A stretch of 64,000 nt of DNA from Gnetum montanum (Eukaryota > Plantae > Gnetophyta), in the NCBI GenBank assembly GCA_015680685.1, contig MNCI01001687.1, forward strand, positions 160,255 to 224,254, given 5' to 3'. Position numbers and translations under genes: made by a program. The notes under the pieces are model-generated. The model made no database searches, was not told the origin of the DNA, and saw only the letters and a list, made by a program, of their open reading frames with translations. Positions 1-25,813 of the stretch are shown one piece after another (position 1 is the first letter of the stretch; each line of letters starts with the position of its first letter).

Positions 1-2244
1 GTACCATTCATTAGTGTGTGTTGTACTGACGGATGCAATTGGAAGTGCGTCGAGGGTGTTGGTTATGGGCTCGAAACAGCTGGTCACGGAGCTTGGTAAT
101 GCATGAAACATGTCAGGGGATATGTTTAAAGCTAAGGTTGCTAAGGCGTCTGCAATGGTATTTTCATTCCTAGGGATATGCTGGATGTCAACCTTTTCGA
201 ACCGTTTAAGTAGGTGCTTAGCTAAATCACAGTATGGTTGTAAGTGTTGTGCTTTACACGTATAGACATCTGTGACTTGGTTTACGACTAGTTGTGAATC
301 CCCTCTTACTACAAGCTGTGTAATGTCCGAGGCTAATGCGGCCGCGAGACCTCTAAGGAGACCCTCATACTCTGCTATGTTGTTAGTACAATGAAAACTG
401 AAGCGATAGGCGAATGGCTTAATTTCTCCAGAGGGGTATGTGATCATAGCGGCAGCACTTCCTCCTCGGGAGGTGGATGCTCCGTCGAAGTTTAGAACCG
501 CCTCGTAATCATCCGGCACCGTGTCTATTGTATTTACATTCTTGTCTAGGAATTCGGGTTCTATTCTACCTGGATCATGCGTTGGCGATGTGGTCATCTG
601 ATTCGCTATGGCTTGACCCTTTACTGATGATTGTGCTACATAGTGTAGGTCAAACTCAGCTATGATTGCCTTCCAACGGGCTATCCTGCTTGACTCATAG
701 ATGTTTCCGGTTATAGCTCTGAGCACATTATCTTTACAAATTATGTTAACTTGATTTTGGAAAAGATAATGTCGCCATTTCTTTAAAGAGAAAACTAAAG
801 CTAAGCATGACTTTTCTACATCGTTATATCTCTTTTCGTGGGCAACCATTGCATGACTCAGGTAGTATACAGGTACCTCAATTCCGTCATCTCGTTTTTG
901 GCACAACATGGATGCGATCGATGATTCTGATGTTGCCAAGTAGATGTAAAACGGCCTATCGTTTTTGGGCGGGAATACGGTGGGTAACCGAGCGAGTGCT
1001 GTTTTAACGTTGTCAAATGCTTCTTGGCACTGCGATGTCCATTCAAAGCGGGTGTTTTTGCGTAGTAGGTGGTTCATAGGTGTAAGTTTTCCCGTCAAAT
1101 TTTCTATGAACCTCCTAATGAACTGCAACCGCCCTTGTAACCCTCGGAGTTCGGTTAGATTGCTAGGTGGTTTTAGGTTCATAATGGCCTTAACCTTATC
1201 GGGGTCTACCCGTATCCCTGCCTCTGAGGCTACAAATCCAAGTAATTTGCCCGTTTTGATGCCGAAAATGCATTTTTTCGGGTTAAGCCTTAGTTCGTAT
1301 TTTAGACAACGTTTTAATACTAAGTCAAGATCTCGCACGTGTTGTTCTGGCGATTTTGATTTGACCACTATGTCGTCCACGTAATCATTGAGCGAGTGTA
1401 AGATATAACCACTGAAAATATACGTCATTGCTTTTTGATACGTGGCCCCAGCATTCTTGAGACCAAAAGGCATCATTGTATAACAAAAGGTTCCCCAAGG
1501 TGTCATGAAAGTAGTTCGGAGCTAGTGTTCTGGATTGATACGTATCTGGTTATATCCTGAGAAGCCATCCATAAAGGATAATAGGGCATGCCCAGCAGTT
1601 GAGTCAACTAGTTGATCAATGCTAGGTAAGGGGAAGTCATCCTTTATGGTTGCTACGTTAAGGTCCTGGAAGTCAATGCAAAGACGAATGCTTCCGTTCT
1701 TCTTTGGGACTATGACCATGTTCGATACCCATTCGGCGTAATCAACAGCCCTAATGAAACCAGCTTGATAGAGCTTGGTAATCTCACTACGAACTGCTAA
1801 CTCCACTTCGGGTTTGACCTTTCGTGCTTTCTGTTTTACTGGCCTTAGTTTCGGGTCAAGGATGATGTTGTGCTGGACGATACGGGGGTCTAACCCGGGC
1901 ATGTCTGTATAAGACCACGCAAATGCCTTCATATTGTCCTTAATTACGTTTTCGATGTCTCTAGCCAAACTTGGTTCTAGTAGTGTGCTTAGTTTTAGGA
2001 TTTTAGTTTCCCCGTTGGGCATGGCGATAGGTGTTTCCGTTAGAGGGTCCTTGGTAATGTTTTTAGCTTCAATGTCGAGGGACTTTGTCATTCCCTCATA
2101 TTCGTCAACCGTTTGCTGTGTTGAAGCTATCGTAAAGTCGTTCGCTGATGAGTTCGCGTAAACGAGATTCGCATCGATACTCCTTTCAATTGCGCCGTAT
2201 GGTCCATCAATGACCAACGGCTCGGTCAAGCGCTTGCAATCCAT
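1..2244 (-). CDS. pol: E1 pol: reverse transcriptase, degenerate RNase H and archaeal-type RNase H (aRH); one premature TAG at 1522-1524; runs off the window
   Basis: Manual translation: WVSNMVIVPKKNGSIRLCIDF, FMDGFSGYNQI, MPFGLKNAGATYQ, YVDD (1372-1383), RH FYIYLATS...YNDVEKSCLALVF, aRH LNFDGAS (FDGAS 475-489)...TNNIAEYEG...GDSQLV...RNENTIADALA. The frame is open from 1521 to position 1. Confidence 0.95.
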
Positions 2245-2351
2245 TAGGCAAGTTCCTGTCAATGAATGGAAAGTCTGATAAGATAGTGGAGGTCGTTTCA
2301 GGTCTTTCAGCAATCTTTAGCGTACATGTGTGAAAATGAGTTAGCATGATA

Positions 2352-2449: not shown

Positions 2450-2597
2450 CCGAAATTTGTTGTTTGTGTCGTTTTTGTGTGTAGGTTTTATATCTTTTTT
2501 GAAAAATTCAAAACGGATTCGAAAAAGCGCAAAAAACGAGGCAAAAAGCGAGAAAAACGGAAAAGTGGCGGCGGCGTCAGCGTCAGCGTGAACGCGC

Positions 2598-2635
2598 TAT
2601 AAATAGGAAGCGGGGGCGTCATTTTGTCATTTCAC
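2598..2635 (+). promoter_or_regulatory. TATA box and initiator-like site of the antisense gene
   Basis: TATAAATA at 2598-2605 with TTGTCATTTCAC about 25-30 nt downstream. The same arrangement occurs in E2 (CATAAATA near 15064...CCATTTTCAC) and E5 (minus, 53691-53698...TTGTCATTCTCAC). Confidence 0.7.
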
Positions 2636-2736
2636 TTTTGGAACGTGAGCGTGAACCGAGAGCGAAACCCCAGCGTGAACGCCGAGCCAAACCTAAGCCG
2701 TGCACGCCGAGAAGGAACCCCAGCGTATATGCCGAG

Positions 2737-5700
2737 ATGGGCAGAGGTAAAGAACTGGAAGGCCGAGGGCAGAAAGGACCTGAACTGACGTTCGCGGAGG
2801 AGAGCCAGGCGATGCTGCAAGGTCTACCCCGCCCGAGCGTCTCCGCGTGGCCCGGATCTTCTCGCAGGTAGGCCTTTGACCCTGTTTTCATTAATTTTTC
2901 ATTTTCGCAGTGTAGGATTTCGGCGTATACGCCGAGCGTGAAGGGTTGTGGCAGCATGGACGCCACGTGCGTTGTTTTCGGCGCAGGGTTTTTAGGGTTT
3001 TCCTGTTTTTCACACGCCGGGCGTATACGCCAAGCGTGACTATTTTTCGCACGCCGGGCGTATACGCCAAGCGTGGCTGTTTTTCGCACGTCAGGCGTAT
3101 ACGCCAAGCGTGACTGTTTTTAGCACACCGGGCGTATACGCCAAGCGTGGCTGTTTTTCGCACGCCGGGCGTATACGCCCAGCGTGACCTGGGAAATATT
3201 CTGTAAGCGTCTGAAAAGCTTGAAATTTTGGATATTGACTTTTGGCGTCTTTTAATGATTTGCAGAGACGTTGAGACTCCCCTTCTTGTGATCGAGCTGG
3301 TTGGGGTCCTGACATGGTTTGGTCCTTTGGAGGGTAATGACCCGACCCCGAACTTGGTCGTTGAACATAATGGGGTCTGGTTCCGAGACGGGGCCTGCGA
3401 ATTTCTGGCTTTCTTGCTAGACTATTTCGATGTTGTGGTCTGGTCTCATCTAGGCAGTGATGTGGCACGGAGCATTATTGAGGCTATGCTACCCGGCGCA
3501 GCGGAAGGCGTCAGGATCTTCATGGAGGACGTTGATGAGGGGCCACTTGTTGCCGAGGGCGTTCCCCCCGGTGGTCCGAAATCGACCCGTCCGTTAACCC
3601 GTGTGTGGGACCAGCTGCCGCGGGGCGCCAACTACCTCAACAACACACTGTTCCTAGCAAGGCGTGCGCATACTTTGTTCCAGAATCCACCTGGCACTGT
3701 ATACCGGGTGGAGAGGTAATTTCGTCCTAACCTTGATTGTTCTCTTCTTTCTCACATTCAAATATTTACTCCCATTTTGACACATGTTTTCGCTTTCCCG
3801 CAGACCGAAAATTACACTAGATGGGGCCTACGCGGGTGATGATGGGATTGGGTTGGCCCGCACGGCCGTGAAAGCATTCATGGTGGGTCCCACACTGCGC
3901 GGGACCGTTTTGGCTCATACTAGGGATGCCATGAGGAATTTCCCCAAGAAATTTTTGAAGGCATTTGCGCAATGTGCCGCATGTGGTTGGTTACATGCTG
4001 ACTGGGCTCCTAATAGACCGGTTTTTCCTCCCGCCTCTGATCTGGGCGAAACTTCGAGGTCCAACACTGTAAGTAAGTGGCCAGGTTTTCTAAATGTCGT
4101 GTTTGGTTTGATCGATTGTCAAGTATTGCGCTCATGTGAGGGTTTCGGGTTTGCCTTTATAGCTGGCACCACCTCCGGCAGGGATTCTGTCATGACTGGG
4201 AGGACCGAGGCTACTCTCTCAATGAAATTTGGTGAAACCAATGCGGCTCAGAAGTGGCTTCGATCGAAGGCTTCGCCATCCATTGTCGCCTGCTTGGAGC
4301 ATGCCGGCCTCATGGTGCTCTTTGCTGCCCCTAGCCCAAACGTTTCTATAGCGGAGATGATCGGGATTGTAGATTCATTCGATAGACCCGTCTCTTGCTA
4401 TAGCACCCGTGTCAGGGGCGTTAACGTGATTTTCGAATTGTCACCTCAATTTCTCGCAGATTTGTTTGGCGTACCTGCTAGTGGCATAAAAGTTGTTATG
4501 GACAGGATACATAAAGAAATTGAGATGGTCCGTGATTTAGAGGATTGGCTAGGGATTAGGAAGGGTACCAAAGGGTTCCCAATGCAGGGGAAAACAAAGG
4601 TTGAGGAAGTTAACGAACTCTACCCCTTATTTAGAGCGCGTTTGTTCCCAAAGACGCTATCACAAGTCAAGACTTTCGGTGTTGAAGCCGTGCGGGTTAT
4701 GCGCACTATTCTGGAGGCTGGTGTGCGTTATAACTGGGCGGATTTTTTATTAGCAGGGATGACCAAGGATATAGAGCGGATGCGTTCAAATATAGAGGCG
4801 CAATCCCATTTTACTTTTGCCTTCTTTGCTGGCTATATCCGTCGCTTGGTTGAATTCTTGGTGGTTCGTGGGGAAGGCAAGTTTGTTTTGCGTGATAGAT
4901 ATCAGTTGTCTCGCCCCTGGGTGAACCACCTATTCGACACCGCCAAGTCCTAAGACGCCCCCGAGGGGATCGATGAATCCCTTACGATTACCACGGGTGG
5001 ATCGTCTGGCCCTTCGCTCCACACACGCGACAGCCTAGGGGTGGAACCCAATGGAGTACCTCCAACTTCAAGGAAGGCGGAGCGGGTGGTAAAGGAGATA
5101 ATTGGCAAAGTGAAGTCCAAACTGGGGAAGCGCAACAGCACAACCGAGGGAACCAGCGAAATTGAGCAGCCTAGAGTAAAGCGGATCCGATTCAAGATTC
5201 CTGGTAAATTTCTTGCCTTTTATTTCACTTGTCTTACACATAATTTTAACTGTTACTGGTTGTGTGCAACTGACTTGGCTTATCTTGAATTGAGCAGTCG
5301 AGAGACATGACCTTCCGCCTATACCAGAAGACGAGGAATTGACCGATCCGGCGGGAGGCACCGAATTGCTGGAGGAGGTGACTGGAGGAACCGGGGGTAC
5401 TGAACCCCTGGACGACCAAGCGGAAACTGAAGAAATGCTTAAAAGCTTTCTTACAGGGGACCTTGATCTTGGAGACCCTCCAACCCAAGAGGAGATCAGA
5501 AGGAACGGTATGTCTTATTGCTCCGTTATTCAGCCTAATATGTTCTTGGATTACCCTATTATGACGTGTTTTCGTTTGATTCAGAGGAGGGTGAGACCGT
5601 CTCAGAGAAGGAACAAGAGATCCCTCCTGAAGTGTCTCCGAAGGCTAGCTCTTCGCGCACCGATGGTCCTTTTACTTGGATGGAGATGCCAAGTAAAAAG

Positions 5701-6773
5701 GATTTCGTGGCTGGGGTGGCCGAAGAGGTTGTCGAACGGATCGAGAGGATCAACCCCAATATAGGTATGGGTGTATCTAAAGTTTTTGTTTTAGAGTTGG
5801 ATGCTTAGTCCCATTTGTTTTAACGTTTACCTTTTTCCCACGAACAGGCGCCCAGCTAAGGTGGGACCCATCCGAGCCCGTNNNNNNNNNNNNNNNNNNN
5901 NNNNNNNNNNNNNNNNNNNNNNNNNNNNNNNNNNNNNNNNNNNNNNNNNNNNNAACAATTGTGGCTTCAAATTCAGGACAAAGAGAAAGAGAATTCTGCC
6001 TTGTCAAAAGAACGTGATGATTTGAAGGCCCGCTATGAGTTCACAACAGCTAGGTTAAACAATGATCGCTTTTGGCGGACATCCGAGGTCACCTATACAA
6101 GGTATTGGGACCTTCTTAATCGCCATGCAGGGCTGATACGGAGGCTGGGGGAGCGAAGAGCCCAAATTGACCTGCTGAACACCAAGTGTCAAGATTGGAA
6201 GGCCTTTGCCTCCAATGTTCGCAAATGGGGACAAGACGAAAAGAACCACAAGCACCAATACAAAAAGTTGCTAAAAGAAGTTTCAATTGAGAAGCGACAG
6301 TTAGAGATGTTTGTGGAAGGTCTGGGTCTGCGCTCCGCTTTTAACACCTTTGCCCAGAACACAATTGTGGAGATGGAGTCTCCGAAACGGCGGATAACAA
6401 CAGCTTCTGGGGAGGTGTCGGTAGGTGAATTCCCTCTGAAACGCCCCACCTGGTCAGCGGTCGATAAGGACAAGGCTTTGGCTGATATAGACTTGGGTCT
6501 GGATGGGACGGATTGGGCTAGTGTTCCTGAAGAGGAGATCCTGCGACGACTTGAATTTGGCCTGGGGGGACCTCCTATGGTCAGCGTTTTGTCTCTTTTT
6601 GTTTTTGGAGTTTGAAATTCCGACATTCACTTTTGCCTTTTTGTTGACTGTTTCATTTTTGGTCTTTTCAGGATGAAGGTGGGGACGAGACTGGCGAAGT
6701 TGGCTCCAGTGGAGCAGGGGTGTCTGGTGCTGGTGAGCCTGAGGAGGATGATCCACATGGCCCAAACGCTTAG
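2737..6773 (+). CDS. E1 antisense accessory gene, 8 exons, about 1040 aa: FCP1/NIF-like pseudo-phosphatase, plant-transposon-protein-like domain, acidic linker, coiled coil; one premature TAA at 4951 and an N gap
   Basis: Exons 2737-2867, 3266-3715, 3804-4072, 4163-5203, 5298-5507, 5585-5764, 5848-6579, 6672-6773. All 7 introns are GT-AG (398, 88, 90, 94, 77, 83, 92 bp) and every junction preserves the frame. Homologous exons occur in E2, E3 and E5. Confidence 0.85.
2922..3187. repeat. CpG-rich 36-37-bp tandem repeat (about 5 copies plus one outlier) in intron 1 of the antisense gene
   Basis: Unit cacgccgggcgtatacgccaagcgtg(a/g)ct(a/g)tttttcg containing the palindrome GGCGTATACGCC. Confidence 0.9.
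3266..3715 (+). CDS. Exon 2: FCP1/SCP (NLI-interacting-factor, HAD-fold) phosphatase-like domain lacking catalytic Asp residues
   Basis: LLVIELVGVL ~ LLVLDLNGxL (motif I); VWFRDGACEFLAFLLDYFDVVVWS ~ KRPxxxEFLxFCFxxFxVxVWS; RPLTRVWDQ ~ KDLxKVW; NNTLFLARR...FQNPPGT ~ NTLLIDDSP...NPPxT. Motif recognition, not an HMM hit. Confidence 0.75.
4163..4950 (+). CDS. Exon 4 (5' part): domain resembling the putative plant transposon protein (Transposase_32-like accessory ORF family)
   Basis: VRGVNVIFELSPQFLADLFGVP and RYNWADFLLAGM...FFAGYIRRLVEF. Homologous segments in E2 (VHEVQVVIDINDQLFMDLFGVP) and E3 (MHNVRVSFDINDQMLTKIFGIS). Confidence 0.55.
5882..5953. other. Assembly gap (72 N) inside exon 7
   Basis: N run. 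The homologous segment in E2/E3 is about 40 codons, so the true gap is probably longer than 72 bp. Confidence 0.95.
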
Positions 6774-7019
6774 CATTTTAGCATTTTTCTGGTTTTTCAA
6801 TTCAAGCTTGTACTGGAACTGTGATGGCATTAACAGGGATTGTTGACTGTATGTAACAACATGCATATATATCTATATATGGTTTTTTTCCCTTCTTCTT
6901 TTTTTTTTTTTTTTTTTGATTTTGGGTTTAACATACCATAGAAATATAAAATATTTTGATTTGTTTTTGTTTTAAGTGCGATGCAGGAAGCGATTAAAAG
7001 GAGGATGAAAAGCTGATAC

Positions 7020-7106
7020 TAGTTTATGGCCATTTCGGGCCCCATGCGTAGTTTATGGCCATTTCGGGCCCCATGCGTAGTTTATGGCCATTTCGGGCCC
7101 CATGCG
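7020..7106 (-). repeat. 29-bp tandem repeat x3 (hairpin-motif array)
   Basis: Plus-strand unit tagtttatggccatttcgggccccatgcg; element-sense GGCC-CGAAAT-GGCC-ATAAACTA. Confidence 0.92.
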
Positions 7107-7253
7107 TAACTAAAGAATGTTTTGGAGAATGCGGGTAGATTTCTCGGATAACCGATCATTGCTGATCGTGGCTAGTTTTATGTCATTGCGGACATGATAG
7201 TTTAGTGTCATTTCGGACCGGGAGTGACTCTTGATTGTTTTTTTTTTTTATCA

Positions 7254-7464
7254 TAGTTTAATGTCATTTCGGACTTTTTATAGTTTAACGTCATTTCGGA
7301 CTTTTTATAGTTTAACGTCATTTCGGACTTTTTATAGTTTAACATCATTTCGGACTATTTATAGTTTAACGTCATTTCGGACTTTTTATAGTTTAACGTC
7401 ATTTCGGACTTTTTATAGTTTAACATCATTTCGGACTTTTTATAGTTTAACGTCATTTTGGACT
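7254..7464 (-). repeat. 27-bp tandem repeat x8 immediately after the gag-pro stop (hairpin-motif array)
   Basis: Plus-strand unit tagtttaacgtcatttcggacttttta; element-sense GTC-CGAAAT-GAC-GTTAAACTA. Confidence 0.95.
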
Positions 7465-7477
7465 AAGGATTAGCTTT

Positions 7478-10400
7478 CTATTTTAATTGTTTCTTGATAT
7501 TCTTTATTTTTAAATCAGTGGATGTACTGATAGGCACTATTTTATATTCAGCATCTCCCTCGCTGATTACGTTGAATGGAAATTCAGCCCAGGGGACGTT
7601 TGTTGGAATATTTTCGGTGTTTGTATTTTCGAGGGTTTCAGTATTGGTTGTTATTTCCGCGTTGTCTCCTTCATGGGGCTGCAGGTATAGTATGTCAGAT
7701 GGAGGCGTTTTGGTGTTAGGAGACTTTTAATCCGTGACAGAGGGCTTGCCATCTGTTGGCGATCGGGGGTTCTCGTCATTTGGACTAGGTTTTTCGATCT
7801 CTATTTGTGACCCTTGCTCTATTTCTAAGCTTGAAGAGATTATGGGAATTGTCGCTTCCCCATGTATAACGACCTCTCCGCCCTCGTAGGGCAGGTGAAT
7901 TTCCTGATGTATGGGAGATGATACGGCTCTTAACTGGGCTAACCAGGGCCTTCCTAAGATGAGATTGAACCCTGGCATCTCATCGACTACCAAGAAATCA
8001 GCGGATGTAGGGAACTGGTTTCCCGCTATAAAGTCAAGGGTTATCGTGCCCTTGACTAATACACGCGACCCGCTGAAGGATTTCAAACATGCAGTTGTCG
8101 TGGGTTTGATCGCGTCTGTAAGTCCCAATTGTTCGATGATTGGATATGGCACAACATTAGTGGCTGCCCCATCATCTACATGTACCCTATGTATCTTAAA
8201 TTGGTTTATATGTATGGTTATAAACATGGGGGTCGTCGTCGTCTCGCCGGTTGTTTTATCTGTTTTGATGCTCTCGTCACGAAAGCTTAAGGCGTTAGGG
8301 CTGACCCCGCGAGGAGAATACATCACCGCATGGATTGCTGGTTCGCTCGGAGGCAAGTCCTCACTAACCGGGATAGATGTTAACATGCGTACAAGCGCTT
8401 CGCGGTGAGTCTGGGAAGTCAACACTAAATCATATAAGCTTAGAGACGTGTTTTTTTGTTTCAGTGCCTGAGTGACTTGCATTAGGACCGTCGTGAAATC
8501 CCTGCTGTCAGGAGCATTTTGGTTGAGAGGGACTGGGTCCATCGGGCCCAGGAGTTTTATCTCGCGTTTTTGTGATTTGTCGTTCTTGCGGATGTTAGCA
8601 GTGTCGCGTTGTTCGTGCGTCCGAGAGGTTTCGCCGCTGCTGCCTACGTCCAGTTGATTATCAGATGATGCCATAGGCATGGAGCTGAGAGGTGTTGGTT
8701 TAGGTGGCCCCACGGCTAGCCGTTGGCGTTCCTTCTCCACGCGTTCGCGTGTGAGCCTGTCTGCTAGGCGTTCTCGCGTGTTACAAGGACTTGGCCTCGG
8801 ACCCTGGGATTGTCCAGGGACCTTTACGACATATGGAGCAAGACGGGGTTGTGGGTATGACTGGGCAGGAGCTTGTGCGGGCACTCGGACGACGTATGGA
8901 GTTGGCCTTAGTGGAGATGGGACCTCCGTCATTGCAACCGCAGGTGGTACTCGGGCTACAAAGGGGGTAGGCCGAGCGTAAGATGTCGTTGTGCTCGTGG
9001 GATTAACGGGGGGAATGTGCACCACGTAGGGTTGTTGGCGCGTCGTCATGTTGGGGATGGGTGTAATCGAGGGTACTCGAACTACGTATGGCCGCTGCAG
9101 GGTACGAGATGTCTGGGGTGCGAGCATAGGCTCATGGAGAGGGATTTGAACTACAAACGGCTTGTTAGATATTTTCTTATTCTCCGGGTGTATCATATTA
9201 ATGTGGGGTGTGTCGGGCTCATCGTCACAGTAAATCGTGCTAATTGTGTATGGAGCCTCCTTAGTATTTAGGGGGTCTTAGTACACTCCCATGGTTTGAT
9301 TTTGTGGTTGGACGGGGTTAGCTCCGTCAAACGTGATGCTACCTTTGTCAATCATCCGTTGGATATCCTGCTTCAAAGTAAAATAGTAATCTGTTCCATG
9401 TCCCGGTCTTTGATGATAGTCGCAAAAGCGATCCATCCGGAACCCTTTGGGCACGGGGGGCTCATCTAGGGTTGCTAGGCTCGGATTCTGTACGAGTTGA
9501 CAGAATCGGTCGTGTCTTTGAATGGCTGCAGGGGATAATTGTTTGTGGCTCATCGACCCAGCCTTTAAGAGCTGATCGAAGAGTTGAGAAGGCTTCATTG
9601 GCAGAGGCGTATATTGAGAGGGTTCTTTCCTCTCAAAATTCCGTGTACGGTTTGTCGGATTCTACTGCGGTGATGATTCTTGTGCGGTGGTTGCGGGCTG
9701 GGGGTGATAGTAGTTAGTAGGTGGCGTCGGCGGCTTTTGTTGTTGCGTCCCTGCTACGGCCGCTATAGTGGTTTTAGTCTTTTCTTTGTCTTTCTTAGTA
9801 TGTTGACTCTTAAAGTCTATGTAGGCCGGATCGTGACTGTTTTGGGCAGCTTCTTCAATGTTCTTAATTTGCTCGAACGCTTGATTGAGATCTCGCGCAT
9901 TGAGGTAATACAGTTTAGATTTAAAGAAATCGTTGACTGCCCCTTTTAGGATCGTAAGTAGGTAAAATGGGGAGATCGGTTCATGAAGCTTGTTCAGAGC
10001 TGCGTTCCATCTTTGAATAAATTTTTGGATCGGTTCGAGAGGCCCCTGCTTAATCTGCATGAGGCTATCCAGCGTTGGCTCGGGTTTCAAGTTGTACTTA
10101 AACCGGGTCACAAACTGACGTATAAGATCATCCAAAGCACAGATGGAGTTCCTGGGCAAGGCGCGGTACCAATCGAGTGCCCTTCCCGTGAGGGACATGG
10201 GGAACACCCGGAGGACAGCGTGAGGCCAAGCTTGGAGCAGGGCACATTCCAATCGGAATGTTATGAGATGGGCGTTAGGATCTGTCTCGCCGTTATACTT
10301 AGTTAATGTCGGCAAGGGAACACCTTTGGGCAAGGTTAAAGGTGGGAAAGAGGAGCTGATGGGGTCATCATTATAGAAATCTACTACTTTCATCTCCCCA

Positions 10401-11557
10401 TCGGTGACGATTTTGAGGCGCTTTACCTCATCTGTCAATTCCTCCATCATCCTTTTGGCATCTGCCCAATCCTGAGCGTTTGGGAGTAAGGTGGTTTGAG
10501 CTTGGGACTGGCTGTATGGGTTAGAATGCTGAACGGTAGAATGGAAGGCTGAAAGTTGCGTTGTCGGGGGTTGCATTTGTGGGAAGTATGTGGTAGATGG
10601 CATCAGAGGCGCTACATTATAGAGAAGAGGCTGTTGCTGATGCGGTCGTGGCTGTGCCTAAGGCACATGAATTGTTGGCAACATGTGGGGCGGTATGCAG
10701 TGTTGGGAAGCCTGGTGCGACGTCGTGCCCGTCATCGGCCACTGCCCGACCATGTTGTACGAGGAGGCTCCTTGTTGGGTTACGGCAGTGAAAGGGGGCA
10801 CGTGCGTCTGGACATGCGGGATGTAGTGGGCAGGTGTGGAGATAGGTATAACGTGTGGCTTTCTTACCACTTGGGACTGGGCTTGAAACGTCACTCCTAG
10901 GTTGCTGTGAGGGGGCGGTGCTTGTGAGGATGAACCTGCGAGTGTAAAAGGGAAGGCATTCGACAAAGGATGGCCTTGGGGAGGGACTTGAGCTGACGCG
11001 GATGTTCCTTGTAACAGTGCTTGGGTATGGTCAGAGGTAATGGGTTGGAGGGGTGTGGTTTCCCCTGCGTCCGAGTTAAATACAGGGTTCACGTGGTTAT
11101 GCAGACTGAGAGTATGATAGGAATCTTCACGTTCAGATTGCGCAGCGAATTCGTCCTCTTCATCCCGTTGTGGTTCTACCGTAACCTGGTCTAACAATTG
11201 GCTCCTATGCAGAAGGAGCTGCGTAAAGAGCTCCGAGAATTGCTCCGGAATGGGGATTACGTCGTATGGGGAAGGGATGAATTCATACCCCCCTCTGTAA
11301 AAGATCTCAAATTGCCTTTTTACTTCCATCTCAGCCCGGTCTACTGCCAGGCCAGCTTGTATCTTAATGCAAATGAAGTTATATTCGTCTTGGCTTATGA
11401 TATTAGCGGCAGGGTCTCTCCCTTGCAACCTCAAAGATCGACGGGGCCCCATTGTGGATTGCCCTCCCATGTGTTGTGTGGCGGGTTGCTGGGCAGTCGT
11501 TGCGTCTGAGATGTTAACGTTCTGGGTAGTAGCAGCAGTGATGTTGATGGGTTTCAT
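7478..11557 (-). CDS. gag: E1 gag-protease polyprotein (1359 codons) in one frame, interrupted by four premature stops (10658, 9662, 9278, 7727)
   Basis: ORFs 10658-11557, 9662-10603, 9278-9598 and 7727-9196 share one frame and continue to ...IKKQLK* at 7478. Retrotrans-gag KYNGETDPNAHL...SLTGRALDWY; Tat-type knuckle FCDYHQRPGHGT; protease VHVDDGAATN...LILGRPWL. Confidence 0.92.
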
Positions 11558-11639
11558 GATTATAGACGATTTGAGTGTGTGGAACTGATATGGATAACGG
11601 TGTATGCGGTGGCGTAGACGAGTCTACAGGCTAAGTATC

Positions 11640-11910
11640 TGCGGCGTAAACGCCGGCGTAAGCGTGTAGCGTGTACGCTAAGTATGCAGCGTAGACGCTG
11701 ACGTGAGCGTGTAGCGTGTACGCTGGGGTTCGTCTGCAGCGTAAACGCTGGTGTAAGCGTGTAGCGTGTTCGCTAAGTATGTGGCGTAGACGCTGGCGTA
11801 AGCGTGCAGCGTATACGCTAGGGTTTGTGCAGCATAAACGCTGGCGTAAGCGTGCAGCGTATACGCTAGGGTTTGTGCAGCGTAAATGGAGTCGACAGCG
11901 TAGACGCTGA
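11640..11910. repeat. Degenerate CpG-rich tandem repeats in the E1 5' UTR
   Basis: Repeated gcgtaaacgctggcgtaagcgtg(t/c)agcgtatacgct units. Confidence 0.8.
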
Positions 11911-11985
11911 GTCTGATTTTAAAAAAGGCAGCGAGGACGCTAATCAGCGTGAACGCTGAGGGGCGTGAAGCCTGTTTAGCGAAGG

Positions 11986-12003
11986 GCCCTCCTTCTAGCG
12001 CCA
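11986..12003 (-). promoter_or_regulatory. E1 primer binding site complementary to the 3' end of plant tRNA-Asn(GUU)
   Basis: Minus strand TGGCGCTAGAAGGAGGGC, 5 nt from the LTR end. The plus strand reads like a tRNA 3' end, ...CCCTCCTTCTAGCG-CCA; tRNA identity is from recalled plant tRNA-Asn sequence. Confidence 0.85.
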
Positions 12004-12008
12004 AAAAC

Positions 12009-13411
12009 TATGCCGACCGAAATCGTCGGTGCAAGGCTGGAACGTGACGAACACCGAAAGAGATGCGGGCGAGCACAGTTGACCCTGCCTCCGCTTGAGG
12101 GCGAGCTGGAGTGGGCGAAGGCAGAGTGCCTTGAACGGTCTGCACGCGGATCAAACAAGGACTTCCCCGAGCGCCGCCGAAGCGTTATACGCTGGGTTAT
12201 ACGTGAACAGGGCGTAAGCAATGAATCAGGCATGCACGGCGTAAACAGCGTAAATAGAAGTGAACACAGCGTGAGCGTACGGGCGTGACAGCGTAAACTG
12301 AAATGAGCACAGCGTGAGCCTACAGGCGTGAGCGTAAACAGTGAATGGATATAGGGCGTAAGCAGGCAGACGACATGAACAGTGGGCGTATACAAACGGA
12401 GGTGGAGCGAAAATGCAAGCGGGCGTGAATGAGTACTGGGCCAAATTGACGTAAAACTGAGAAAGAGCTCACAGCGAGCGTAAACAGTGGTTGTCTTCGG
12501 ACGCGAACCGAGCACGGAGCGCGAACGCAAACCGGCGTAAACAAGGCGTGGGCCAAATCAACGTAAAACTATAAAAGAACTTGCAATAAACGTAAACAAT
12601 GGATTATAGAGTTAAAATGTTGTGCACCGGTCTAACGCAGTTGTGTAGGGACACAAGGCGGACGTAAAGCCCTGGTGGACAGAGGGATGCAGCTGGCGGA
12701 CACGGTGGACGAAGCGCGAACTGTGCTCAGCGTGCAGCGTGCAGGGCTTTCAGCGTAAGCGTGAGCGTGTGAGGGTTTCAGCAGCGTAATTGCTCTGGGC
12801 CAGCTCTGGTAAATTTTCGCGAACCCGGTAAACGTGGAAAATTGGGCTATTTATAGGGGTAGGGTTACTGGGAAAAGCGGATGGGGGGACACGTGGCGTA
12901 TAGACCGGGCGTTACAATTTAGAAACTCGGTACACGCTGGGCGTATACATTACAAGCTGGCGTGTATGCTGAGCGTACACGCTGGGCGTACACGCTGGGC
13001 GTATACGCTGAGCGTAAACACTTACAAGCTGGCGTGTACGCTGGGCGTACACGCTGGGCGTATACGCTGAGCGTAAACATTTACAAGCTGGCGTGTACGC
13101 TGGGCGTACACGCTGAGCGTAGACGCCGGGCGTACACGCTGAGCGTAGACGCCGGGCGTAGAGACCGACAGATGTCCACTTGCTTCAATCCTTGCTCTTT
13201 GGTGTAATCTTCATGTTGCCATTGGAAATCTTGTCGTCGAGCGTGTGCCCCTGCCGTACCTGGGCGTGTACACTGAGCTGGGCGTAGACACTGAGCGTGA
13301 ACGCCGGGCGTAGACGCTGGGCGTGAATGCTGGGCGTAGACGCTGGGCGTGAATGCTGGGCGTGAACGCTGGGCGTAGACGCTAGCACAACAATATTTTT
13401 GTGGTGTTTCA
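12009..13411 (-). repeat. E1 5' LTR (about 1.4 kb) with U3 arrays of GCGTA(C/T)ACGC units at about 12925-13385
   Basis: Starts TGAAACACCAC at 13411. The end aligns with other LTR ends (...GTCGGCATA; CA changed to TA) and abuts the PBS. Confidence 0.9.
12848..12897 (-). promoter_or_regulatory. LTR promoter: G-box/ABRE-like GCCACGTGTC followed by TATAAATA
   Basis: CACGTG at 12890-12895; TATAAATA (minus) at 12848-12855. The same pair occurs in the solo LTR (about 49335-49382) and the E2 5' LTR (about 51817-51868). Confidence 0.65.
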
Positions 13412-14292: not shown

Positions 14293-15221
14293 CTCTTGCT
14301 TGTCTTGCCAACATGAGATAAAAACCTGGTTAAGAGGCATCTGTTAGTAGAGATTTTGTGTAATGAAAGTTTGCAAAACAACGACGAGATGTAACTTGCG
14401 AAGTGTAATGATGCAAAGATTGAAAGTTTGCCAGTTCAGGGTCATGGCGGACCACCAAGGCACAAGAGTGTAGAACTACTAAAGGTGTAAAACTTCTAAT
14501 GCAGAGTGCAAAGATATGAGATTGCTGATATGAAAATGCCAAACTTCTAGTTTAGTGTCATTTTCGGACTGCCAAATTGTGACATGCAAAATCTTACCAT
14601 GCAAAATTATAGTATGCAAAATGAGAGACTACAGGTATGAGAAATGCTAAATAGTCAATGTGAGGATATGCATTGCTGACATGAAAATATGAAATTGCTA
14701 GAAATTGCAACACTGCCAATGTAGAAGAAGATGTGAAAACCGCCCATGTAAGCATGTGGTGTTGTTAGTTTAACATCATCGCAGACTGCGAACATAACAG
14801 GTTGAAACTACTAGTTTAGGGTCTTTTCAGATTGCTAGAGGTGCAATTATACTAGGATTTCTAGTTTAAGGTCCTTTTAGACCCTTAATCAAAAACAAAT
14901 ATATTTTTTTTGTTTTCAAGAAGGCAAGTACTTGGCTTGAAGCATGTCAAGGATTTAATGCTAACAGTGCTACGATGTCATGGTGAGCATGCTACGTTGT
15001 ACGACACACTCTAAATTAATCAGAGAGAGAGAGAAGCAACTTTTCCCACCTTGTCATTATAGCCATAAATAGGGGTTAAACCCTGGAAATTTTTCCATTT
15101 TCACTGTAAGAGTGTAGAGCCCACATCGGAGCACAAGGCAATTTCAGAGCATGAAGCAATTGTCTTAATGACTACCAAGGTGAGTTTTTACAACAATGAG
15201 TGTAAATCTACAAGCAGGAAA

Positions 15222-18200
15222 ATGGCTCCCAAGACTCATCTAGTGCTTACAAAGGTTGAGAAGGTGAGGAGGACCTTGGGGCAATCGACACAATCGTGTG
15301 TGGTGGTGCGGAAGAGCACACCGTTGACCCAGTAGGTTACTATGTTTCCTCTACCTTCTTCGCATTCTTGTTATCATTTTGCATTTTATGCAATTTTATG
15401 ATTTTTGAATCCTATCCTTGGCTACCTGTATTTTCTATTGTCATGTCATTTTGGCCCTTACATCACCAATGTTATTGTTTAGCTCATGATAGATGCATCA
15501 TTGTTATGTCATAGTTGCATGCAAGGTTGCTTAAACTACTACCACTGCAATTGTCATAACCGTGGGGCTTGGGAAGTTTAGGCTTCTTGACCTTCAAATG
15601 GCATGATGTAGAACCCTTAAGGGGGTTAGTACATACGTGTTTCATTAGGGAATGTTGTCGATTTCTCTATTGCTATGCTAAGCTTTTTGTTTTTCATGTT
15701 TTTGCTATGATAAACTTTTGTGTTCTTGCTACGCTACGTGTAGGGAGAGGGCTATGCTACACCATATGCATGAACTATGAGGTGTTGCCATGCTATGTGT
15801 GTATCGCACTTAGGCATGATGCTAACACTCGTTGATGGGTTGCACAGGGTGGGGCTAAGGCCTAGGCTAATTATTTTGAAAATTAGAGGGGTCATGTGCC
15901 ATGTAGGCAAACCCGTGGCCAATGTTCCTCCTCCTCAAATATGTGTGGGGGAGTGGGAGGTATGGTTTAGGAAGGGGGCACAGGGCTTCTTGCAATTCCT
16001 CCTTGATCACTTCAGTGTGATTATTTGGTCCTCCTTGGAGAAGGAGGAGGCAGTCGGCATAACAGAAGCTATTTTTCCTGGGGCGCGCCGAGGCATTCTA
16101 AGGTTTCTGACTGACAGGGTGATCATAAGAAGACAAGGGAAAGGATCCAGTTAGCGGCCAACAGGGTTAAGGTGCTTGGTATGCATTTGGGAGATGCCTG
16201 ATTATAGCTACTACCACCATTTCAACACATTATTCCTTGCACGTTTTATGACAACATGCTTCTAGAACCCTCAAGGAACTATCTACTTTGCCGGCGGGTG
16301 AGTTTCGTAGCTTTGTTATGCTATGTTTGTGCGATGCTAGCCATAGTGGCCTAATGCTAATAATATGAGCTTGCTACCAGGTTCTTAATTAATGAGGATG
16401 GGATCATGACCTACCAGGTTTATTGGCTACAACACAACTAGCCCTGGAGGAGTTCTCTTCTGCTGAGAACCTTAGGGTGGGTGTGATCGGTCAATATAGG
16501 GGTGAATACCACACCTACCCAGATGTGTATTCTCCCATGTACAATTAGTGTAAGGGGTAGGGTTGGATGGATGAGGAGTGGGTGAAACCTTTCAAACTGG
16601 TCATGGTCAAGCAAGTTTGGGTTAAACTCCCACTACTCCCACTGCCATACCAACCTGGTAGGCCGAGTAGTAAGTGCCACATGTTTATGTGTCTTCACAA
16701 ATTTTGAGTTCTCTACATTTTTCACTAAACATTTTTGTGGAATTGTTGCAAGGGATAACAAAATCCTAGGAGGTGACAACGATAGCCATTGGAATACAGG
16801 GGATGAATGTCTACTTCTAGTATGGAGAAGTAGAGATGAGCTAACGTTGGCTGGACGTTGGGGCTTCGGACTCCCTAGTCTAGAACATTGAAAAGGTGGG
16901 GCTTATGGATCTATTCCCGATCTTGCATCTGAACATTCTTGTGGCTGAGATGCTTACCTTAGTTAAATGTTTTTTTGACAAGGTGAGCCACTTTTTCCTA
17001 CACGTGCATGAAGTGCAGGTGGTCATTGACATCAATGACCAACTATTCATGGACCTCTTCGGTGTCCCTGTCGAAGGCATTCCGATAGGGTCAAAATCCA
17101 AGATGGAGTTGACCCTCTAGAAGAAGGACCTTTAGGAGTGATTAGGGATCACCAATGAGCACAAGGGGCTCCCCATGGAGTGATTAGGGATCACCAACGA
17201 GGACAAGGGGCTCCCCAAGGAGTTTTACCCCATCTTCTGTGCTCAGGAATTCCCCTAGCTTCTTACCCAGGGGAATGTCCTGGGGCTTGAGCAGGCTTGG
17301 ATAATGCGTTTGATTATGGAGGAGGGGACTCATTACAACTAGGTTGAGTCTTTGTGTAAAGGCTTGTAGGATGAGATCCTGGGGCATCATATGAAAATGG
17401 AGTTCCATTCCAACATCCATTACACCTTCTATATAGGCTATCTTAAGTGCTTCATGGAGTTCTTGGTGGTCTAGGAGAAAGGAGGCTAGGTCCTGCGAAA
17501 TCGCAACCAGATTTCCAGATCATGGATTTGCCAGGTCTTTCATACCATCTAAGCCTAGGATCCCCTAAAAGTAATTGGAAAGTCATTTTCTATAACGAAG
17601 AAGGATCGGGTGGCCTGTAACGTTTGTGACCAGGACAGCGTATGCGAGACACCCCCCACTATGGATGGTAGCATGTCACAGAGTGAACATCTCATGGTGA
17701 AGATAATGGATGGCAAGGTATGATAGAAGAGGCCTCCCCCAGCTAAGGAAACCCTTCGCATGGAGGAGGAGGATGGGTGAATACTACGGCTTAAACTATA
17801 GAGCATGCAACCCCCCATTGGTAAGAGTTTTTGTTTAGTGCTTACTTTGTTATTGTTTGCTACACTATGCTACGCTAGGTGGTGTAGCGTAGTGTAGCAC
17901 CTACTTTGAGCTAACTTTCTTTGAACTAATGCAAACTTGCTTTTTTTCTTGTAGAGGAAGAAGAAGAAGAAGGCAAAGAGGTGTCGGCTCCTAATATGGG
18001 GATAATGAATAAAGACATGGGGGCCCCAGTCTTAGAGAGAAGGGTCCCAGTTGACATGTAGAGAGCTCCTGCAGTTAGAGCAGGGGCTCTCATTATTATG
18101 GAGAATCCTCCTATTGAGGAGTCTTCCTTGAATAAAAGAGATGCTGGTGTCCTCAAGGGAAAAGTGCCAGCGCATGAAGAGGAGGTCCACGGGAACCTGG

Positions 18201-18985
18201 GAGGAACTTCTGGCTAGGCTTCTGCCATCGTCTTGCATTAGTCAGAAGAGAGACCGCAACCAGGTGTTGGTGAGTTTGCAAATATGTTTACCTTGTCTTA
18301 GTTCATTTTGGTCATTGCTAATGTGTTTGGTTATGCGACAGATACTACTGCTGATGCTATGGGATCCCCTCCTGTTCATGCGGGATCCTAGGCTAAAATC
18401 CCTTACAAATTCGTGTTTATGTAGAGGATTGTTGACGACATGATTAATCACCTTCAGCAGGTGGACCCTGAAGTGGGTAAGTACTAGTGTTATTTGCTCT
18501 CGTGTTGTTATGCTAAAATTTCTTGCATTTTCTACTTATGCTATGTCAATACAACTGGTACATTCCTTGTGTTAGGGAAGCTTCTCGACTCAAATGGGAC
18601 CCGACACATCCTATGAAAGTCAGTGCTGTGTCCAAATTCCCACCAGAAGTGACTGAGGTGTCTCATCATGCATACGAAGAGGTCTACAAATTCTTGTTGC
18701 ACTTGGTGCACTCTCTATGGGAGTTCAAATGTATCAATGAGGATCTGTGGAAATGAGTCCAAAGGGCAGAGCAGAGAGAAGCTAACCTAAGGACCAAGGT
18801 GGATGATCGCAAGTTAAGGAATGAGTTCCTCATGGCCTGCATCACTAATAACAAGGACTAGTGCACACCTATGGTAGATCACATCAAGTTTTGGATAGTT
18901 GTGTGTCAGAATGTCGAGACTACCTATGAACTGATAGAATAGTTGATGCAGATGAACCTGCTAGACCAAAAGTGTCAGGATCTAA
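15222..18985 (+). pseudogene. E2 copy of the antisense multi-exon gene (3' truncated)
   Basis: MAPKTHLV... start; VWFRKGAQGFLQFLLDHFSVIIWSS; NTLFLAR...NPQGTIYFAG|gtgagt; LFGVP exon; ...RLKWDPTHP. Stops after LDQKCQDL. Confidence 0.82.
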
Positions 18986-19175
18986 CATGCCAAAGAGATG
19001 ACACGTCAATCGCTTGAAGAATGGCTGACTGGTAATTTATGCTAGTTTTAGGCTGTTTCAAGCTGTAGCATAGTTTTAGGCCATTTCGAGCCATTGCACG
19101 TTGCTAGTTTTAGGCCGTTTTGGGTCATAGCGTGGAAGCATATGAGTAGTGTGTGGGTAGGAAGTAGTGGGGTTG

Positions 19176-20301: not shown

Positions 20302-20306
20302 CTTCC

Positions 20307-21517
20307 TGTAACTATGAAAAATGTCCATCACTGGAAATACCAAGTGAAGTTCCATGTACACAGTTCCAACCCCAGATCCGTGGGAGGGCTGTGATGGAGA
20401 AAACGAATCCGAGGTGCCTTGAATGGCCTTGTCGATCAAACAGGGACTTACTTAATTAGTAAATTTTGTAATAACCATATTACAAGATGACGATTTTGAT
20501 GAGGGGATATGATATTGGTAATCTTGAAGGTAATAAGAACGATGTCAATGATTCGAAGCAACTGCAAAACCTATGTAGATAGGATGCAATAAATTGGATT
20601 TAGAGAATGTGTGATCCTAAGATCTGGGACTTATTTTATAAAAAAATATGTTGAGTACAATGATTGTAGGTAGACTTCAGTTTAGATGAAGCACATGCCA
20701 AGAATAGGAAAGCTATTCAGAGATGAAACAAGAAAAGGCTGATCTACCCTATTCTAGCCAATCTGGGTGTAAGGGAGTCAAACCTGAAGCAGGATGTCTA
20801 CTAACTGGAAGTTTCTAATCAAAAGCTCTTGTCAGTCGTCTTTGAATTTCTTTCGATTTACGATCCTCTCTTTTTCTCTCACTAGTCTTCGCCAAAAATT
20901 GTTACCAATTGCCAATGAAAGAAGATTTCTCACCAAGAAAATTTTCCAACCCTTTGATCATTGTCAACTAGAGCATTTATAAGGTTAGGGTCAAGAGAAA
21001 AATGCGATTTAGATGAAGCGTGTCCTAAACCTACAAAATTCCATTGACTTGGTGCATTTGTAGTTGAAGCTTGTGGTGCTATTCTACGTTACGCTCTAAA
21101 GTGTAGTGTGTCGTAATCTACCTTTGCTAGAGCTTTGATAACAAACTATCCTGTGGTTACACTATAATATGCTAGAGAGCATATCATGGCATAAGTACTG
21201 CCAATGCTTGAATTTTTCTATCTCCATTTTTGCAATTAAATCAATTATCTGCTTGCATTACACTACGTTATGCTACATTACACTCCATAGAGTAACTCGA
21301 CGTAACATAGTGAACTTGAAAAATTGAAGTGTTCTCACTACATATCCCTTGTTTCTATTCAGTCTTTCTGGAGTCTATTACACTATGCTACATAGTGTAG
21401 CATACTAGGCCTTAAGTTGAAAGACGACTATCTGAAATGTGCCACTTGTGGAAATCCTTTACCTAAACTTCGAGACTTTGCTGAATCATCGAGGTCTCAA
21501 AATTTCATGGTGTTTCA
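20307..21517 (-). repeat. E3 3' LTR
   Basis: TGAAACACCA...TTACA termini; preceded by the PPT; matches 45200-46410. Confidence 0.95.
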
Positions 21518-24113: not shown

Positions 24114-25813
24114 TGTACTATCTAAAATTGTCAGTGCATGGCTGGAGTGAAATAGACATCAAGAGATCTACAGACAAGCACAGAAGACTCTACCTTCACT
24201 TGAGGACGAGCTAGAACTAACGAAGTTAGAGTACCTTGGGTGGTCCACACATGGATCAAACAAGGATTTCCCCAAACGTATACCAATGTGTAATATGCTG
24301 GGTTATGTATAAACAGGGTAATGAGCGTAAACCAGAATGTAAATGTGCAGGAATATAAACAAAGAGGCAAGCAAGAATGAATGAAAATTGTAACAAATCT
24401 TGATCAGAAATGAAGCAATTTTATTGCAAGATGAAAGTTGCATTGCAGCGGTATGAACATAGTTGTGGATCTGATACAAGATGGATGAAGAGCCTTGGTG
24501 GATGCAGAGGGATGCTGGTATGCTAGTTTGGACTGCGGGCACAATGTGAAGGCTATATTGTTAGCATGCAGGGTAGAAGTACAGTGTGCAAGGTTGGTGT
24601 TCCAAATCATCTCCAAAATGTGATTTCTTTTTCTCTCTCCCCTCCCTTGGTGGAAAATTTTGGTTTTATAGGTTTTAGGTTGTGAAACTCGGATCTGGAG
24701 TGGTATGAGTGGCCATTGGTGAGAAAATTTTAGGTTGGATGACATGTGGCTACGTTGCTCGAGTGTAAAGAATATTACAAATGTACAGTGTGTTGCATGC
24801 TAGCGTGTACAGGCTGGGCATGTGAACCCAACGTACAGACTTGACAAATACAAAAGAATTGAACTTTACAAATGAACATTACTATTACAATAGAGAATCT
24901 TGAACATGCCCTTGGATTTGAGCTCTGGTGTCATGAGGATGCTGCCTGTGGATTTTCTGCTCATTTTGACTTGATCTAACATGGTTTTGGAAGGCTTCAA
25001 GTGGCGTATGCTGTGCTACACACTGGGCGTGTACAGTATGTGTACTCAGCGTATAGGTCATGGAAGTGCATAATTTTGAGGTTGAATCTTCATTTTTGGG
25101 AGCTTGGGATGATGCTTGCCAATTACCTTACCTCTAAGAGTCAATTGTAGGTGGAGATCTTATTTTGAGGTGCCTGTTTTGAGAGATCCTTGATGCTGCA
25201 TGTTGGGCATCCATGCTGGTGTGCAGGAATGAAAACCCATCATTTGGAATTCAAAAATTGATTTCCAGGAGCCTGAGAGCTACTAGGGACCTTAGGGATG
25301 GTGATGGAGAGTCTAGACCTTCATTTCTAGCTTGTTTTGGTGAGTTTTTGGTGCTCAAAAGTTGCTGCATGCTGAGCCACATGCTGGGCGTGCACGCTGG
25401 CTTGCAGGAATGAAAAACCATTATTTCGATCCCAAAACTTGATTTTTAGAAGCCTACGAGCTATTGGGGACCTTGGTGAAGGTCTTGGGGGGTCTAGACG
25501 TGCAATTCTGACATGTTTTGGCTCATTTTTGGGGCCCAAAAGTTGGTGCACGTTGAGCTACATGCTGGGCGTGCAGGCCTATGTGCAAGAAGTATACTTA
25601 GTCAAAACTAAGTGTTTTGAGTTTGAAACTTGAAATTCTTGTTTCCAGATGTTGATGTAGTCACTAGTGGATCTCAAGGAACTTTTACTTGTTTGATTCG
25701 ACTTTGTTTGATGCTATTTGTGAAGTTCACAAGTTTCAGTCATGCTCAGAAGGATCATGACTTAGCTTGATTCTTGTCTAAAAGTGCTAGGTCTAAATTT
25801 TTGTGGTGTTTCA
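24114..25813 (-). repeat. E4 3' LTR, with an internal ~170-180-bp duplication at about 25200-25570
   Basis: TGAAACACCAC...AGTACA termini; near-copy of 31634-33299. Confidence 0.93.

What the first reader, a model, noticed from the sequence alone, without database searches (positions are those of the whole stretch)
2922..13385. Family-specific CpG palindromes in LTR, UTR and antisense introns: possible VANC-like anti-silencing system
Seen: GCGTATACGC-type palindromes are arrayed in E1 U3 (12925-13385), the 5' UTR (11640-11910), intron 1 of the antisense gene (2922-3187) and the related solo LTR (about 49470-49820). E2, E3 and E5 instead carry (CTACG)n(CGTAG)n motifs both in LTRs (e.g. 52140-52180, 59485-59520, 21260-21400) and in antisense introns (about 15730, 17860-17900, 39070-39100). 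Known: Arabidopsis VANDAL transposons encode VANC proteins that bind family-specific tandem motifs in their own non-coding regions and remove methylation. Inference: the antisense protein and these motifs may form an analogous cognate pair in an LTR retrotransposon.
Basis: inference. Interest (0 to 1): 0.75.

Follow-up and report, generated by a model that had tools for sequence, protein, structure and literature searches.

The report
Retrotransposon promoters with clade-specific binding-site lattices
Plant retrotransposons here carry an extra backward-facing spliced gene, and their promoter regions hold arrays of one six-base word whose spacing differs between two element lineages; the arrays are likely protein-binding sites, possibly for the element's own extra protein as a self-activating or anti-silencing switch, but no binding or methylation loss is shown.

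Summary
The arrays are real and far above chance, but the two 'family-specific' motifs share one half-site (RGCGTR, mostly AGCGTA). What differs is the grammar. E1, the lone LTR and, weakly, E4 use head-to-head palindromes on a 13-bp lattice. E2, E3 and E5 use 5-bp direct repeats in tail-to-tail arrays (8 of 8). In E1 the sites sit only around the LTR promoter and the antisense promoter with intron 1. The elements are Ogre-like Tat Ty3/gypsy with a spliced antisense gene between protease and RT: a NIF/FCP1-like domain with a degenerate catalytic motif, an orphan middle domain and a coiled-coil-like end. It is under purifying selection, and two introns are supported by RNA reads of relatives. 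Grammar follows the RT, gag and antisense-gene clade, but that is one split, so it does not show co-evolution. No VANC, PMD or DUF1985 homology was detected (folds failed), and motif CpGs in old copies have mostly decayed like background. Best reading (0.4): a TnpA/VANC-like self-activation loop; host-factor sites are nearly as likely (0.33).

The parts
12019..13411 (-). E1 5' LTR; U3 about 12851-13411 with 13-bp lattice of head-to-head RGCGTR palindromes; TATA at 12847-12857; G-box-like hexamer about 35 bp upstream of it; R-U5 with 23 unpaired half-sites
11987..12003 (-). primer-binding site of E1 (same type in E2, E3, E4)
11638..11960 (.). 5' UTR array, 10 exact palindromes in 25/45/95-bp tandem units
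7481..11623 (-). gag-protease frame, 4 internal stops
7020..7464 (.). 29-bp and 27-bp tandem repeats of a pan-family, strand-biased motif ('motif C'); no type A sites
2737..6773 (+). spliced antisense gene, 8 exons (2737-2867, 3266-3715, 3804-4072, 4163-5203, 5298-5507, 5585-5764, 5848-6579, 6672-6773), GT-AG introns, exons 1-6 in phase; broken by a stop at 4951 and an assembly gap at 5882-5953
   Evidence: joints of 77 and 83 nt in RNA reads of relatives
3266..3715 (+). NIF/FCP1-like (HAD) domain, catalytic Asp motif degenerate
   Evidence: Pfam PF03031 22.3 bits vs cut-off 21.8, E 1.2e-4; E2 copy 20.7 bits, below cut-off; alignment
4165..4950 (+). orphan middle domain, 29-33% identical in E2 and E3; candidate DNA-binding part (inferred)
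5956..6579 (+). coiled-coil-like C-terminal region
   Evidence: only sub-threshold coiled-coil Pfam hits; homologous in E2, E3
2560..2736 (+). antisense promoter: TATA at 2597-2605 with a palindrome directly before it and a 24-bp repeat array
2868..3265 (+). antisense intron 1 with 37-bp array, 6 exact GCGTATACGC
1..2316 (-). RT-RH-aRH of E1 (runs off the window; one stop)
48748..50031 (-). lone E1-type LTR inside E2 gag, type A lattice partly decayed, no TSD match
24114..33299 (-). E4, gag-PR only (no RT, no antisense gene found), E1-clade gag, weak type A grammar in LTRs
51162..52799 (-). E2 5' LTR with type B tail-to-tail arrays (52144, 52429, 52489)
59210..60918 (+). E5 3' LTR with type B arrays (59489, 59550, 59846)
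15060..19030 (+). E2 antisense gene (decayed); type B sites in intron 1 (15673-15760) and intron 4 (17860-17897)
36350..40900 (+). E3 antisense gene (decayed); at most a remnant of type B
20306..21517 (-). E3 3' LTR (partner 45199-46410), decayed type B arrays

Best explanation
The arrays sit around both promoters of an Ogre-like retrotransposon and are likely docking sites for an oligomeric DNA-binding protein, most plausibly the element's own antisense-encoded protein, which would keep its lineage's LTR and its own gene active in a TnpA/VANC-like feedback loop. Shown: the arrays, their confinement to the two promoter regions in E1, a shared half-site with mutually exclusive grammars in the two clades, and a spliced, selected accessory gene. 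Inferred: the middle domain reads RGCGTR, the coiled coil sets oligomer geometry (13-bp lattice in one clade, 5/10-bp repeats in the other), and the catalytically degenerate NIF/FCP1-like domain acts as an adaptor to the transcription machinery. Any methylation loss would be local and transient, since old copies show no lasting protection.
For: E1: 113 RGCGTR half-sites in about 2.67 kb around the two promoters, 0 in introns 2-6, the last intron and the 705-bp 3' gap. Head-to-head pairs and 13-bp spacing: E1 LTR+UTR 15 and 29, E1 antisense promoter+intron 1 7 and 11, lone LTR 10 and 11, E4 2 and 3, against 0 and 0-1 in all six B-clade sets; 5-bp direct pairs 10, 8, 5, 5, 1, 0 in the B-clade sets against 0-1 in A-clade sets; none in 2 coding controls (50 shuffles each). 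The same word sits in repeat units of 13, 24, 25/45 and 37 bp. B arrays are tail-to-tail in 8 of 8. By transversions E1(+E4) is apart from E2/E3/E5 in RT, gag and antisense exons, and E2-E3 are the closest pair in PR. The antisense exons show third > first > second codon-position change but only 30-39% amino-acid identity against 48-64% for RT/gag (one short pol-start segment 35%). Precedent: Tat extra ORFs encode PMD or Tr28 plus coiled coil (PMC4408406); VANC is structurally PMD/MAIN-like (PMC13547354); PMD paralogues associate with related motifs in different configuration (10.1101/2024.09.27.615353); TnpA binds clustered CG-containing motifs (10.64898/2026.08.24.746577).
Against: One split, three antisense genes: no independent test of co-evolution. 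The half-site is the same in both clades although the proteins are about one-third identical, as a host factor would also give. No Pfam family other than NIF above cut-off, no PMD/DUF1985/Tr28 hit at E up to 10, and no homologue found. CpG retention, motif vs other: E3 LTR pair 6/16 vs 32/66 (p 0.58), E4 pair 22/38 vs 15/46 (p 0.027, 1 of 3 tests, uncorrected), E2 vs E5 LTR 17/34 vs 39/102 (p 0.24), two pairs pooled p 0.25; B arrays only 18-41% intact in 4 of 5 hand-chosen sets, the fifth having 2 sites; no lower transition rate near arrays (p 0.25, 0.12). E2's 5' UTR has no half-site and E3's antisense loci are not enriched. VANC21 and VANC6 motifs contain no CG.
Confidence: 0.4

Rival explanations
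1. The arrays are sites for host transcription factors with a CGT[AG]-type core (NAC-like, recalled from memory); each clade amplified its own spacing by tandem duplication, and the antisense protein does something else (RNA processing, Pol II phosphorylation, particle or integration function).
For: Same hexamer in both clades; promoter confinement; E4 has sites but no antisense gene; a G-box-like word lies upstream of the LTR TATA in both clades, so host sites are used; the only recognisable domain is phosphatase-like, not DNA-binding.
Against: Does not by itself explain why spacing changes together at LTR and antisense loci and is mutually exclusive between clades in one genome. E4 could be served in trans.
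Confidence: 0.33
2. The arrays act as structure (hairpin or cruciform, nucleosome exclusion, or RNA stems), not as a protein code.
For: All 4 arrays folded give strong hairpins as single-stranded DNA (z -3.0 to -7.9); B arrays are long inverted repeats.
Against: Any palindrome array folds. A structure needs neither a fixed hexamer nor a fixed polarity (8 of 8) or 13-bp pitch; unpaired half-sites are dense in R-U5 (23).
Confidence: 0.12
3. Neutral by-product: a short repeat copied around each element by slippage and template switching, inherited with the lineage.
For: Array lengths vary among relatives (go-back joints at 3187, 3188, 2441, 13277); the intron 1 unit resembles a U3 stretch; Tat elements commonly carry family-specific tandem repeats of unknown function (PMC11963269).
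Against: Absent from about 1.2 kb of other E1 non-coding DNA that does host different repeats; a CpG-rich word is expected to erode under methylation, yet 19 of 20 motif CpGs are intact in the E1 intron array (other repeats 31 of 37, not clearly different).
Confidence: 0.15

Closest known systems
VANC anti-silencing proteins of Arabidopsis VANDAL (Mutator-like) transposons (PMC5735166, PMC10398659; passages)
   Same: Family-differentiated short motifs amplified as tandem repeats in introns and terminal non-coding DNA; fast-evolving accessory protein with a coiled coil.
   Different: DNA transposon; motifs lack CG and differ in core letters between families; DUF1985/PMD-like domain; binding and demethylation shown. 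Here an LTR element, a CG-containing shared core, and no detected homology or function.
Spm/CACTA TnpA (10.64898/2026.08.24.746577; abstract and section 4)
   Same: Clustered, family-specific, CG-containing motif near element ends; local activation and hypomethylation, the pattern best fitting promoter-confined arrays.
   Different: TnpA derives from a transposase; nothing links the antisense protein to it.
Ogre (Tat lineage IV) and Retand/Grande extra ORFs (PMC4408406, PMC6317226, PMC11963269 passages; PMC7264820 parts 1-2 of 3)
   Same: gag-PR separated from RT-RH-aRH-INT; accessory ORF with coiled coil; antisense gene with its own promoter (Grande gene23); family-specific tandem repeats.
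   Different: In the passages read, extra ORFs lie 5' of gag or 3' of pol and encode PMD or Tr28; here a multi-intron gene lies between PR and RT and starts with a NIF/FCP1-like domain.
MAIN/MAIL1/MAIL2 PMD proteins with PP7L (10.1101/2024.09.27.615353 passages and Discussion; PMC7156037 listing only)
   Same: Transposon-related domain associated with promoter motifs; paralogues use related motifs in palindromic or non-palindromic form; partnered with a phosphatase-family protein.
   Different: Host genes; different phosphatase family; PMD homology of the middle domain not shown.

Membership tests
Tat clade Ty3/gypsy, Ogre/Retand-type pol | RT-RH-aRH-INT order with a second (aRH) RNase H | tested here: met
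   RVT_1, RT_RNaseH, RVT_3 in order in E1; integrase-side sequence follows in E3, E5, E6 (read by eye); order as in PMC6317226
Tat clade Ty3/gypsy, Ogre/Retand-type pol | LTRs, PBS, 5-bp target-site duplication | tested here: met
   LTR pairs of E3 and E4 with 5-bp TSDs, shared PBS
Ogre (lineage IV) | gag-PR separated from pol by a spliced intron | tested here: inconclusive
   Separation is seen; no joint across the gap listed in 4 RNA runs at low depth
Ogre (lineage IV) | sense PMD-coiled-coil extra ORF 5' of gag | tested here: not met
   Extra gene is antisense and lies between PR and RT; the frame upstream of the gag core has no Pfam hit
Retand | antisense Tr28 ORF between pol and 3' LTR | tested here: not met
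   No PF04195 hit; no homologue of the antisense exons 3' of pol in E3, E5 or E6
VANC system | DUF1985/PMD-like domain | tested here: inconclusive
   No Pfam or PDB sequence hit; models of pLDDT 37-38 make fold searches uninformative
VANC system | [quoted passage not shown] | tested here: met
   the difference is in spacing, not the core
VANC system | encoded by a Mutator-like VANDAL element | tested here: not met
   LTR retrotransposon
VANC system | sequence-specific binding and loss of methylation in trans | not testable with these tools
   Only an indirect CpG-decay proxy, weak and mixed
FCP1/SCP (NIF) phosphatases | NIF profile match | tested here: met
   22.3 bits vs 21.8 cut-off over 54 residues in E1; 20.7 bits in E2; none for the partial E3 piece
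FCP1/SCP (NIF) phosphatases | DxDx(T/V) catalytic motif (motif recalled, not from a call) | tested here: not met
   The aligned position reads ELVGV, KIRGV and DIVGV in E1, E2, E3

The most novel reading that the evidence does not exclude
An LTR retrotransposon lineage encodes its own sequence-specific anti-silencing activator, a divergent PMD/VANC-fold DNA binder fused to a captured pseudo-phosphatase and hidden as a spliced antisense gene in the protease-RT gap, and its families separate their specificity by changing binding-site geometry around a constant half-site.
Probability: 0.25. Interest if true: 0.88.

Novelty: new variant of a known kind. Interest (0 to 1): 0.6.

Why it matters
[quoted passage not shown] This lineage supplies a candidate protein, candidate sites at both promoters and two mutually exclusive grammars, so a reciprocal binding test is well defined. 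The gene's position and its NIF/FCP1-like domain were not found in print in 9 full-text searches, which cover only open-licence papers.

Tried and rejected
No whole genome is held, so no genome-wide motif or family census was possible. Homologue searches were blank: exon 3-4 frame, middle domain against 1.84 billion representatives, NIF exon against longer proteins, 3-sequence profile, metagenome and viral contigs. An RT query gave 6 short loci at 27-55% identity, not analysed further. Two AlphaFold models had mean pLDDT 38 and 37; Foldseek gave nothing at E 0.001 or better and VIA-align only generic helical matches, Z 7.0 at best; this neither shows nor excludes a PMD/VANC fold. By eye the helix-helix-hairpin-helix start of the middle domain recalls PMD/Transposase_32 (memory, untested). 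PDB sequence searches gave no significant hit (UBLCP1 at E 0.8). The two domains are not repeats of each other. No indexed RNA holder was listed; raw reads were laid instead. No PR-to-RT splice joint was listed, uninformative at this depth. Rejected: 'different core motifs per family'; lasting or spreading CpG protection as a clear signal; a phase check across exon 7 (assembly gap). The Atlas search could not be run, two VANC papers (PMC9016345 and the VANC21 structure paper) are not held, and the PMD alignment in the PMC4408406 supplement is a picture (only legends seen); these may bear on the PMD question.
Full report
Anatomy. The window is a nest of Tat-clade Ty3/gypsy elements. E1 (minus strand, LTR about 12019-13411) runs off the window start. 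E2 spans 13412-52799 and holds E3 (20306-46410, TSD CTTCC), which holds E4 (24114-33299, TSD CTTGG; gag-PR only), and a lone E1-type LTR (48748-50031, no TSD match). E5 and E6 lie on the plus strand beyond 52800. The order is gag-PR, a gap of about 5 kb, then RT-RH-aRH and integrase. That pol order and a gag-PR split from pol are features of Ogre-type elements (PMC6317226; PMC4408406; passages).

The antisense gene. In the gap lies a plus-strand gene with its own TATA box (2597-2605) and 8 exons. All introns are GT-AG and exons 1-6 join in phase; E1's copy has a stop at 4951 and an assembly gap in exon 7. Homologous, collinear exons exist in E2 and E3; E5 shows only its promoter and first exon. 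Transversions run third > first > second codon position in all 7 comparisons, with 30-39% amino-acid identity against 48-64% for RT and gag, apart from one short pol-start segment at 35%: selected as protein, but fast. Exon 2 matches Pfam NIF just above cut-off (22.3 vs 21.8 bits; E2 20.7); the catalytic Asp motif (recalled) is degenerate in all three copies, so it is likely a pseudo-phosphatase. The middle domain has no homologue in any search and did not fold. The C-terminal part gives only weak coiled-coil hits. RNA reads of relatives (mostly 90-95% alike, low depth) skip 77 nt with GT-AG ends (3 reads in X4, 2 in X6) and 83 nt (4 and 2 reads), matching predicted introns 5 and 6; X1-X3 listed neither. 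Strand bias in X1 and X2 fits antisense RNA if the libraries are of the usual stranded kind, but it extends to gag, so read-through is possible.

The observation. GCGTNNACGC occurs 37 times, 34 in E1 (U3 16, 5' UTR 10, intron 1 6, antisense promoter 2), against at most 0.1 expected per region; the lone LTR has 2 exact and 15 decay-tolerant sites. Type B is strong in the E2 and E5 LTRs (14, 13) and E2's antisense introns (8), weak in E3's LTRs (2, 1) and absent from E3's gene by this pattern. Both types contain AGCGTA. Counting neighbouring half-sites, A-clade regions show head-to-head pairs on a 13-bp lattice (E1 LTR+UTR 15 and 29; antisense promoter+intron 1 7 and 11; lone LTR 10 and 11; E4 2 and 3) and 0-1 pairs at 5 bp. 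B-clade regions show 5-bp direct pairs (10, 8, 5, 5, 1, 0 in six sets), no head-to-head pair, and tail-to-tail arrays in 8 of 8. Two coding controls show none. In E1, 113 half-sites lie in about 2.67 kb around the two promoters and none in the six later introns or the 3' gap, and the word is embedded in repeat units of different length. This is the pattern expected of binding sites for an oligomeric protein.

Does grammar track the protein? By transversions E2 and E3 (and E5 where present) group against E1 in the RT start, gag, PR and three antisense exons, and E4 joins E1 in gag; the RH-aRH distances resolve little. Grammar follows that split, but one split inherited as a block cannot show co-evolution.

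Is there a trace of demethylation? In LTR comparisons, motif CpGs were intact in 6/16 vs 32/66 other CpGs (E3), 22/38 vs 15/46 (E4, p 0.027 uncorrected; 0.045 with stricter context) and 17/34 vs 39/102 (E2 vs E5); the two true pairs pooled give p 0.25. Transitions near arrays are not significantly fewer. B arrays are 18-41% intact in 4 of 5 hand-chosen sets. So old copies were methylated at the arrays. VANC targets are also re-methylated once VANC is gone (PMC10398659, passages), so this lowers but does not refute the idea.

Mechanism. I favour (0.4) a self-activation loop in which the antisense protein binds arrays at the LTR and at its own promoter. The reasons are the concerted, exclusive grammars at separate loci, and precedent: Tat extra ORFs are PMD or Tr28 plus coiled coil, VANC is PMD/MAIN-like in structure (PMC13547354; 10.1101/2024.09.27.615353), PMD paralogues use related motifs in different configuration, and TnpA acts locally on clustered CG-containing motifs. 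Binding, the PMD fold and demethylation are all untested. Host-factor sites (0.33) fit the shared core, the pan-clade G-box-like site and E4 equally well. Structure (0.12) and neutral copying (0.15) explain less.

Comparison and novelty. It may work like TnpA or VANC but is not a member of the VANC family (not Mutator-encoded, no detected homology, CG-containing shared core; PMC5735166 passages). It is Ogre-like in pol order but differs in the place, strand and domains of its extra gene. Nine full-text searches listed no paper describing this gene or an LTR-encoded anti-silencing pair; subscription journals are mostly not covered. Also seen: PMC11963269 (passages), PMC7264820 (parts 1-2 of 3), PMC12859917 (passages), PMC7156037 (listing only). 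An unreviewed note from the same genome (e1-10288023) reports the same gap with a backward-facing gene; a fungal case (e1-7572074) warns that motif load can persist without such a gene, as E4 shows here. These are leads, not support.

Verdict. A real, well-organised feature with a testable but unproven link to the antisense protein. New variant of a known kind; interest 0.6.

Noticed in passing
window 7020-7464, 14432-14882, 19071, 23008, 26862-27258, 35943-36167, 40961-41068, 53930-54100, 57937-58047: A pan-family, strand-biased motif of about 21 bp ('motif C', 33 fuzzy hits) flanks the antisense gene on both sides and follows integrase in E1-E5, always in one orientation to the element; a candidate RNA signal, not clade-specific.
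   Followed up: partly
window about 2230 (E1), 14275 (E2), 35820 (E3), 54390 (E5): The pol frame has a Met near its start in E1, E2 and E3 (Leu in E5), with candidate splice acceptors upstream; pol may be reached by splicing or by its own transcript.
   Followed up: partly
window about 12890, 51860, 60215: A G-box-like hexamer lies about 35 bp upstream of the LTR TATA in both clades (E1, E2, decayed in E5).
   Followed up: no
window 24114-33299: E4 is a gag-protease-only element with LTRs 85% alike and a TSD; its half-site CpGs are the one case of better retention (22/38 vs 15/46).
   Followed up: partly
window 13412-64000: Deep nesting: E1, E3 and the lone LTR lie in E2, E4 in E3; E2's 5' LTR abuts E5's antisense intron 1; E5's 3' LTR abuts E6's RT. 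CpG o/e is 0.77-0.93 in E1 coding DNA (short exon 1 included), 0.28-0.45 in E2-E5 and 0.09 in E6.
   Followed up: yes
window 50485-50972 and 25199-25578: 122-bp repeats in E2's 5' UTR and 181-bp repeats in E4's LTRs; the former hold no half-site.
   Followed up: no
window 7150-7460: Oligo-dT runs X4 and X6 hold 40-90 reads of one related transcript matching only the motif C repeats; probably a host or relative transcript carrying this repeat.
   Followed up: no
window 9349-10461: In run X1, gag-region reads have the same strand bias as those on the antisense gene, so read-through from copies inside host transcripts may account for part of the antisense signal.
   Followed up: no
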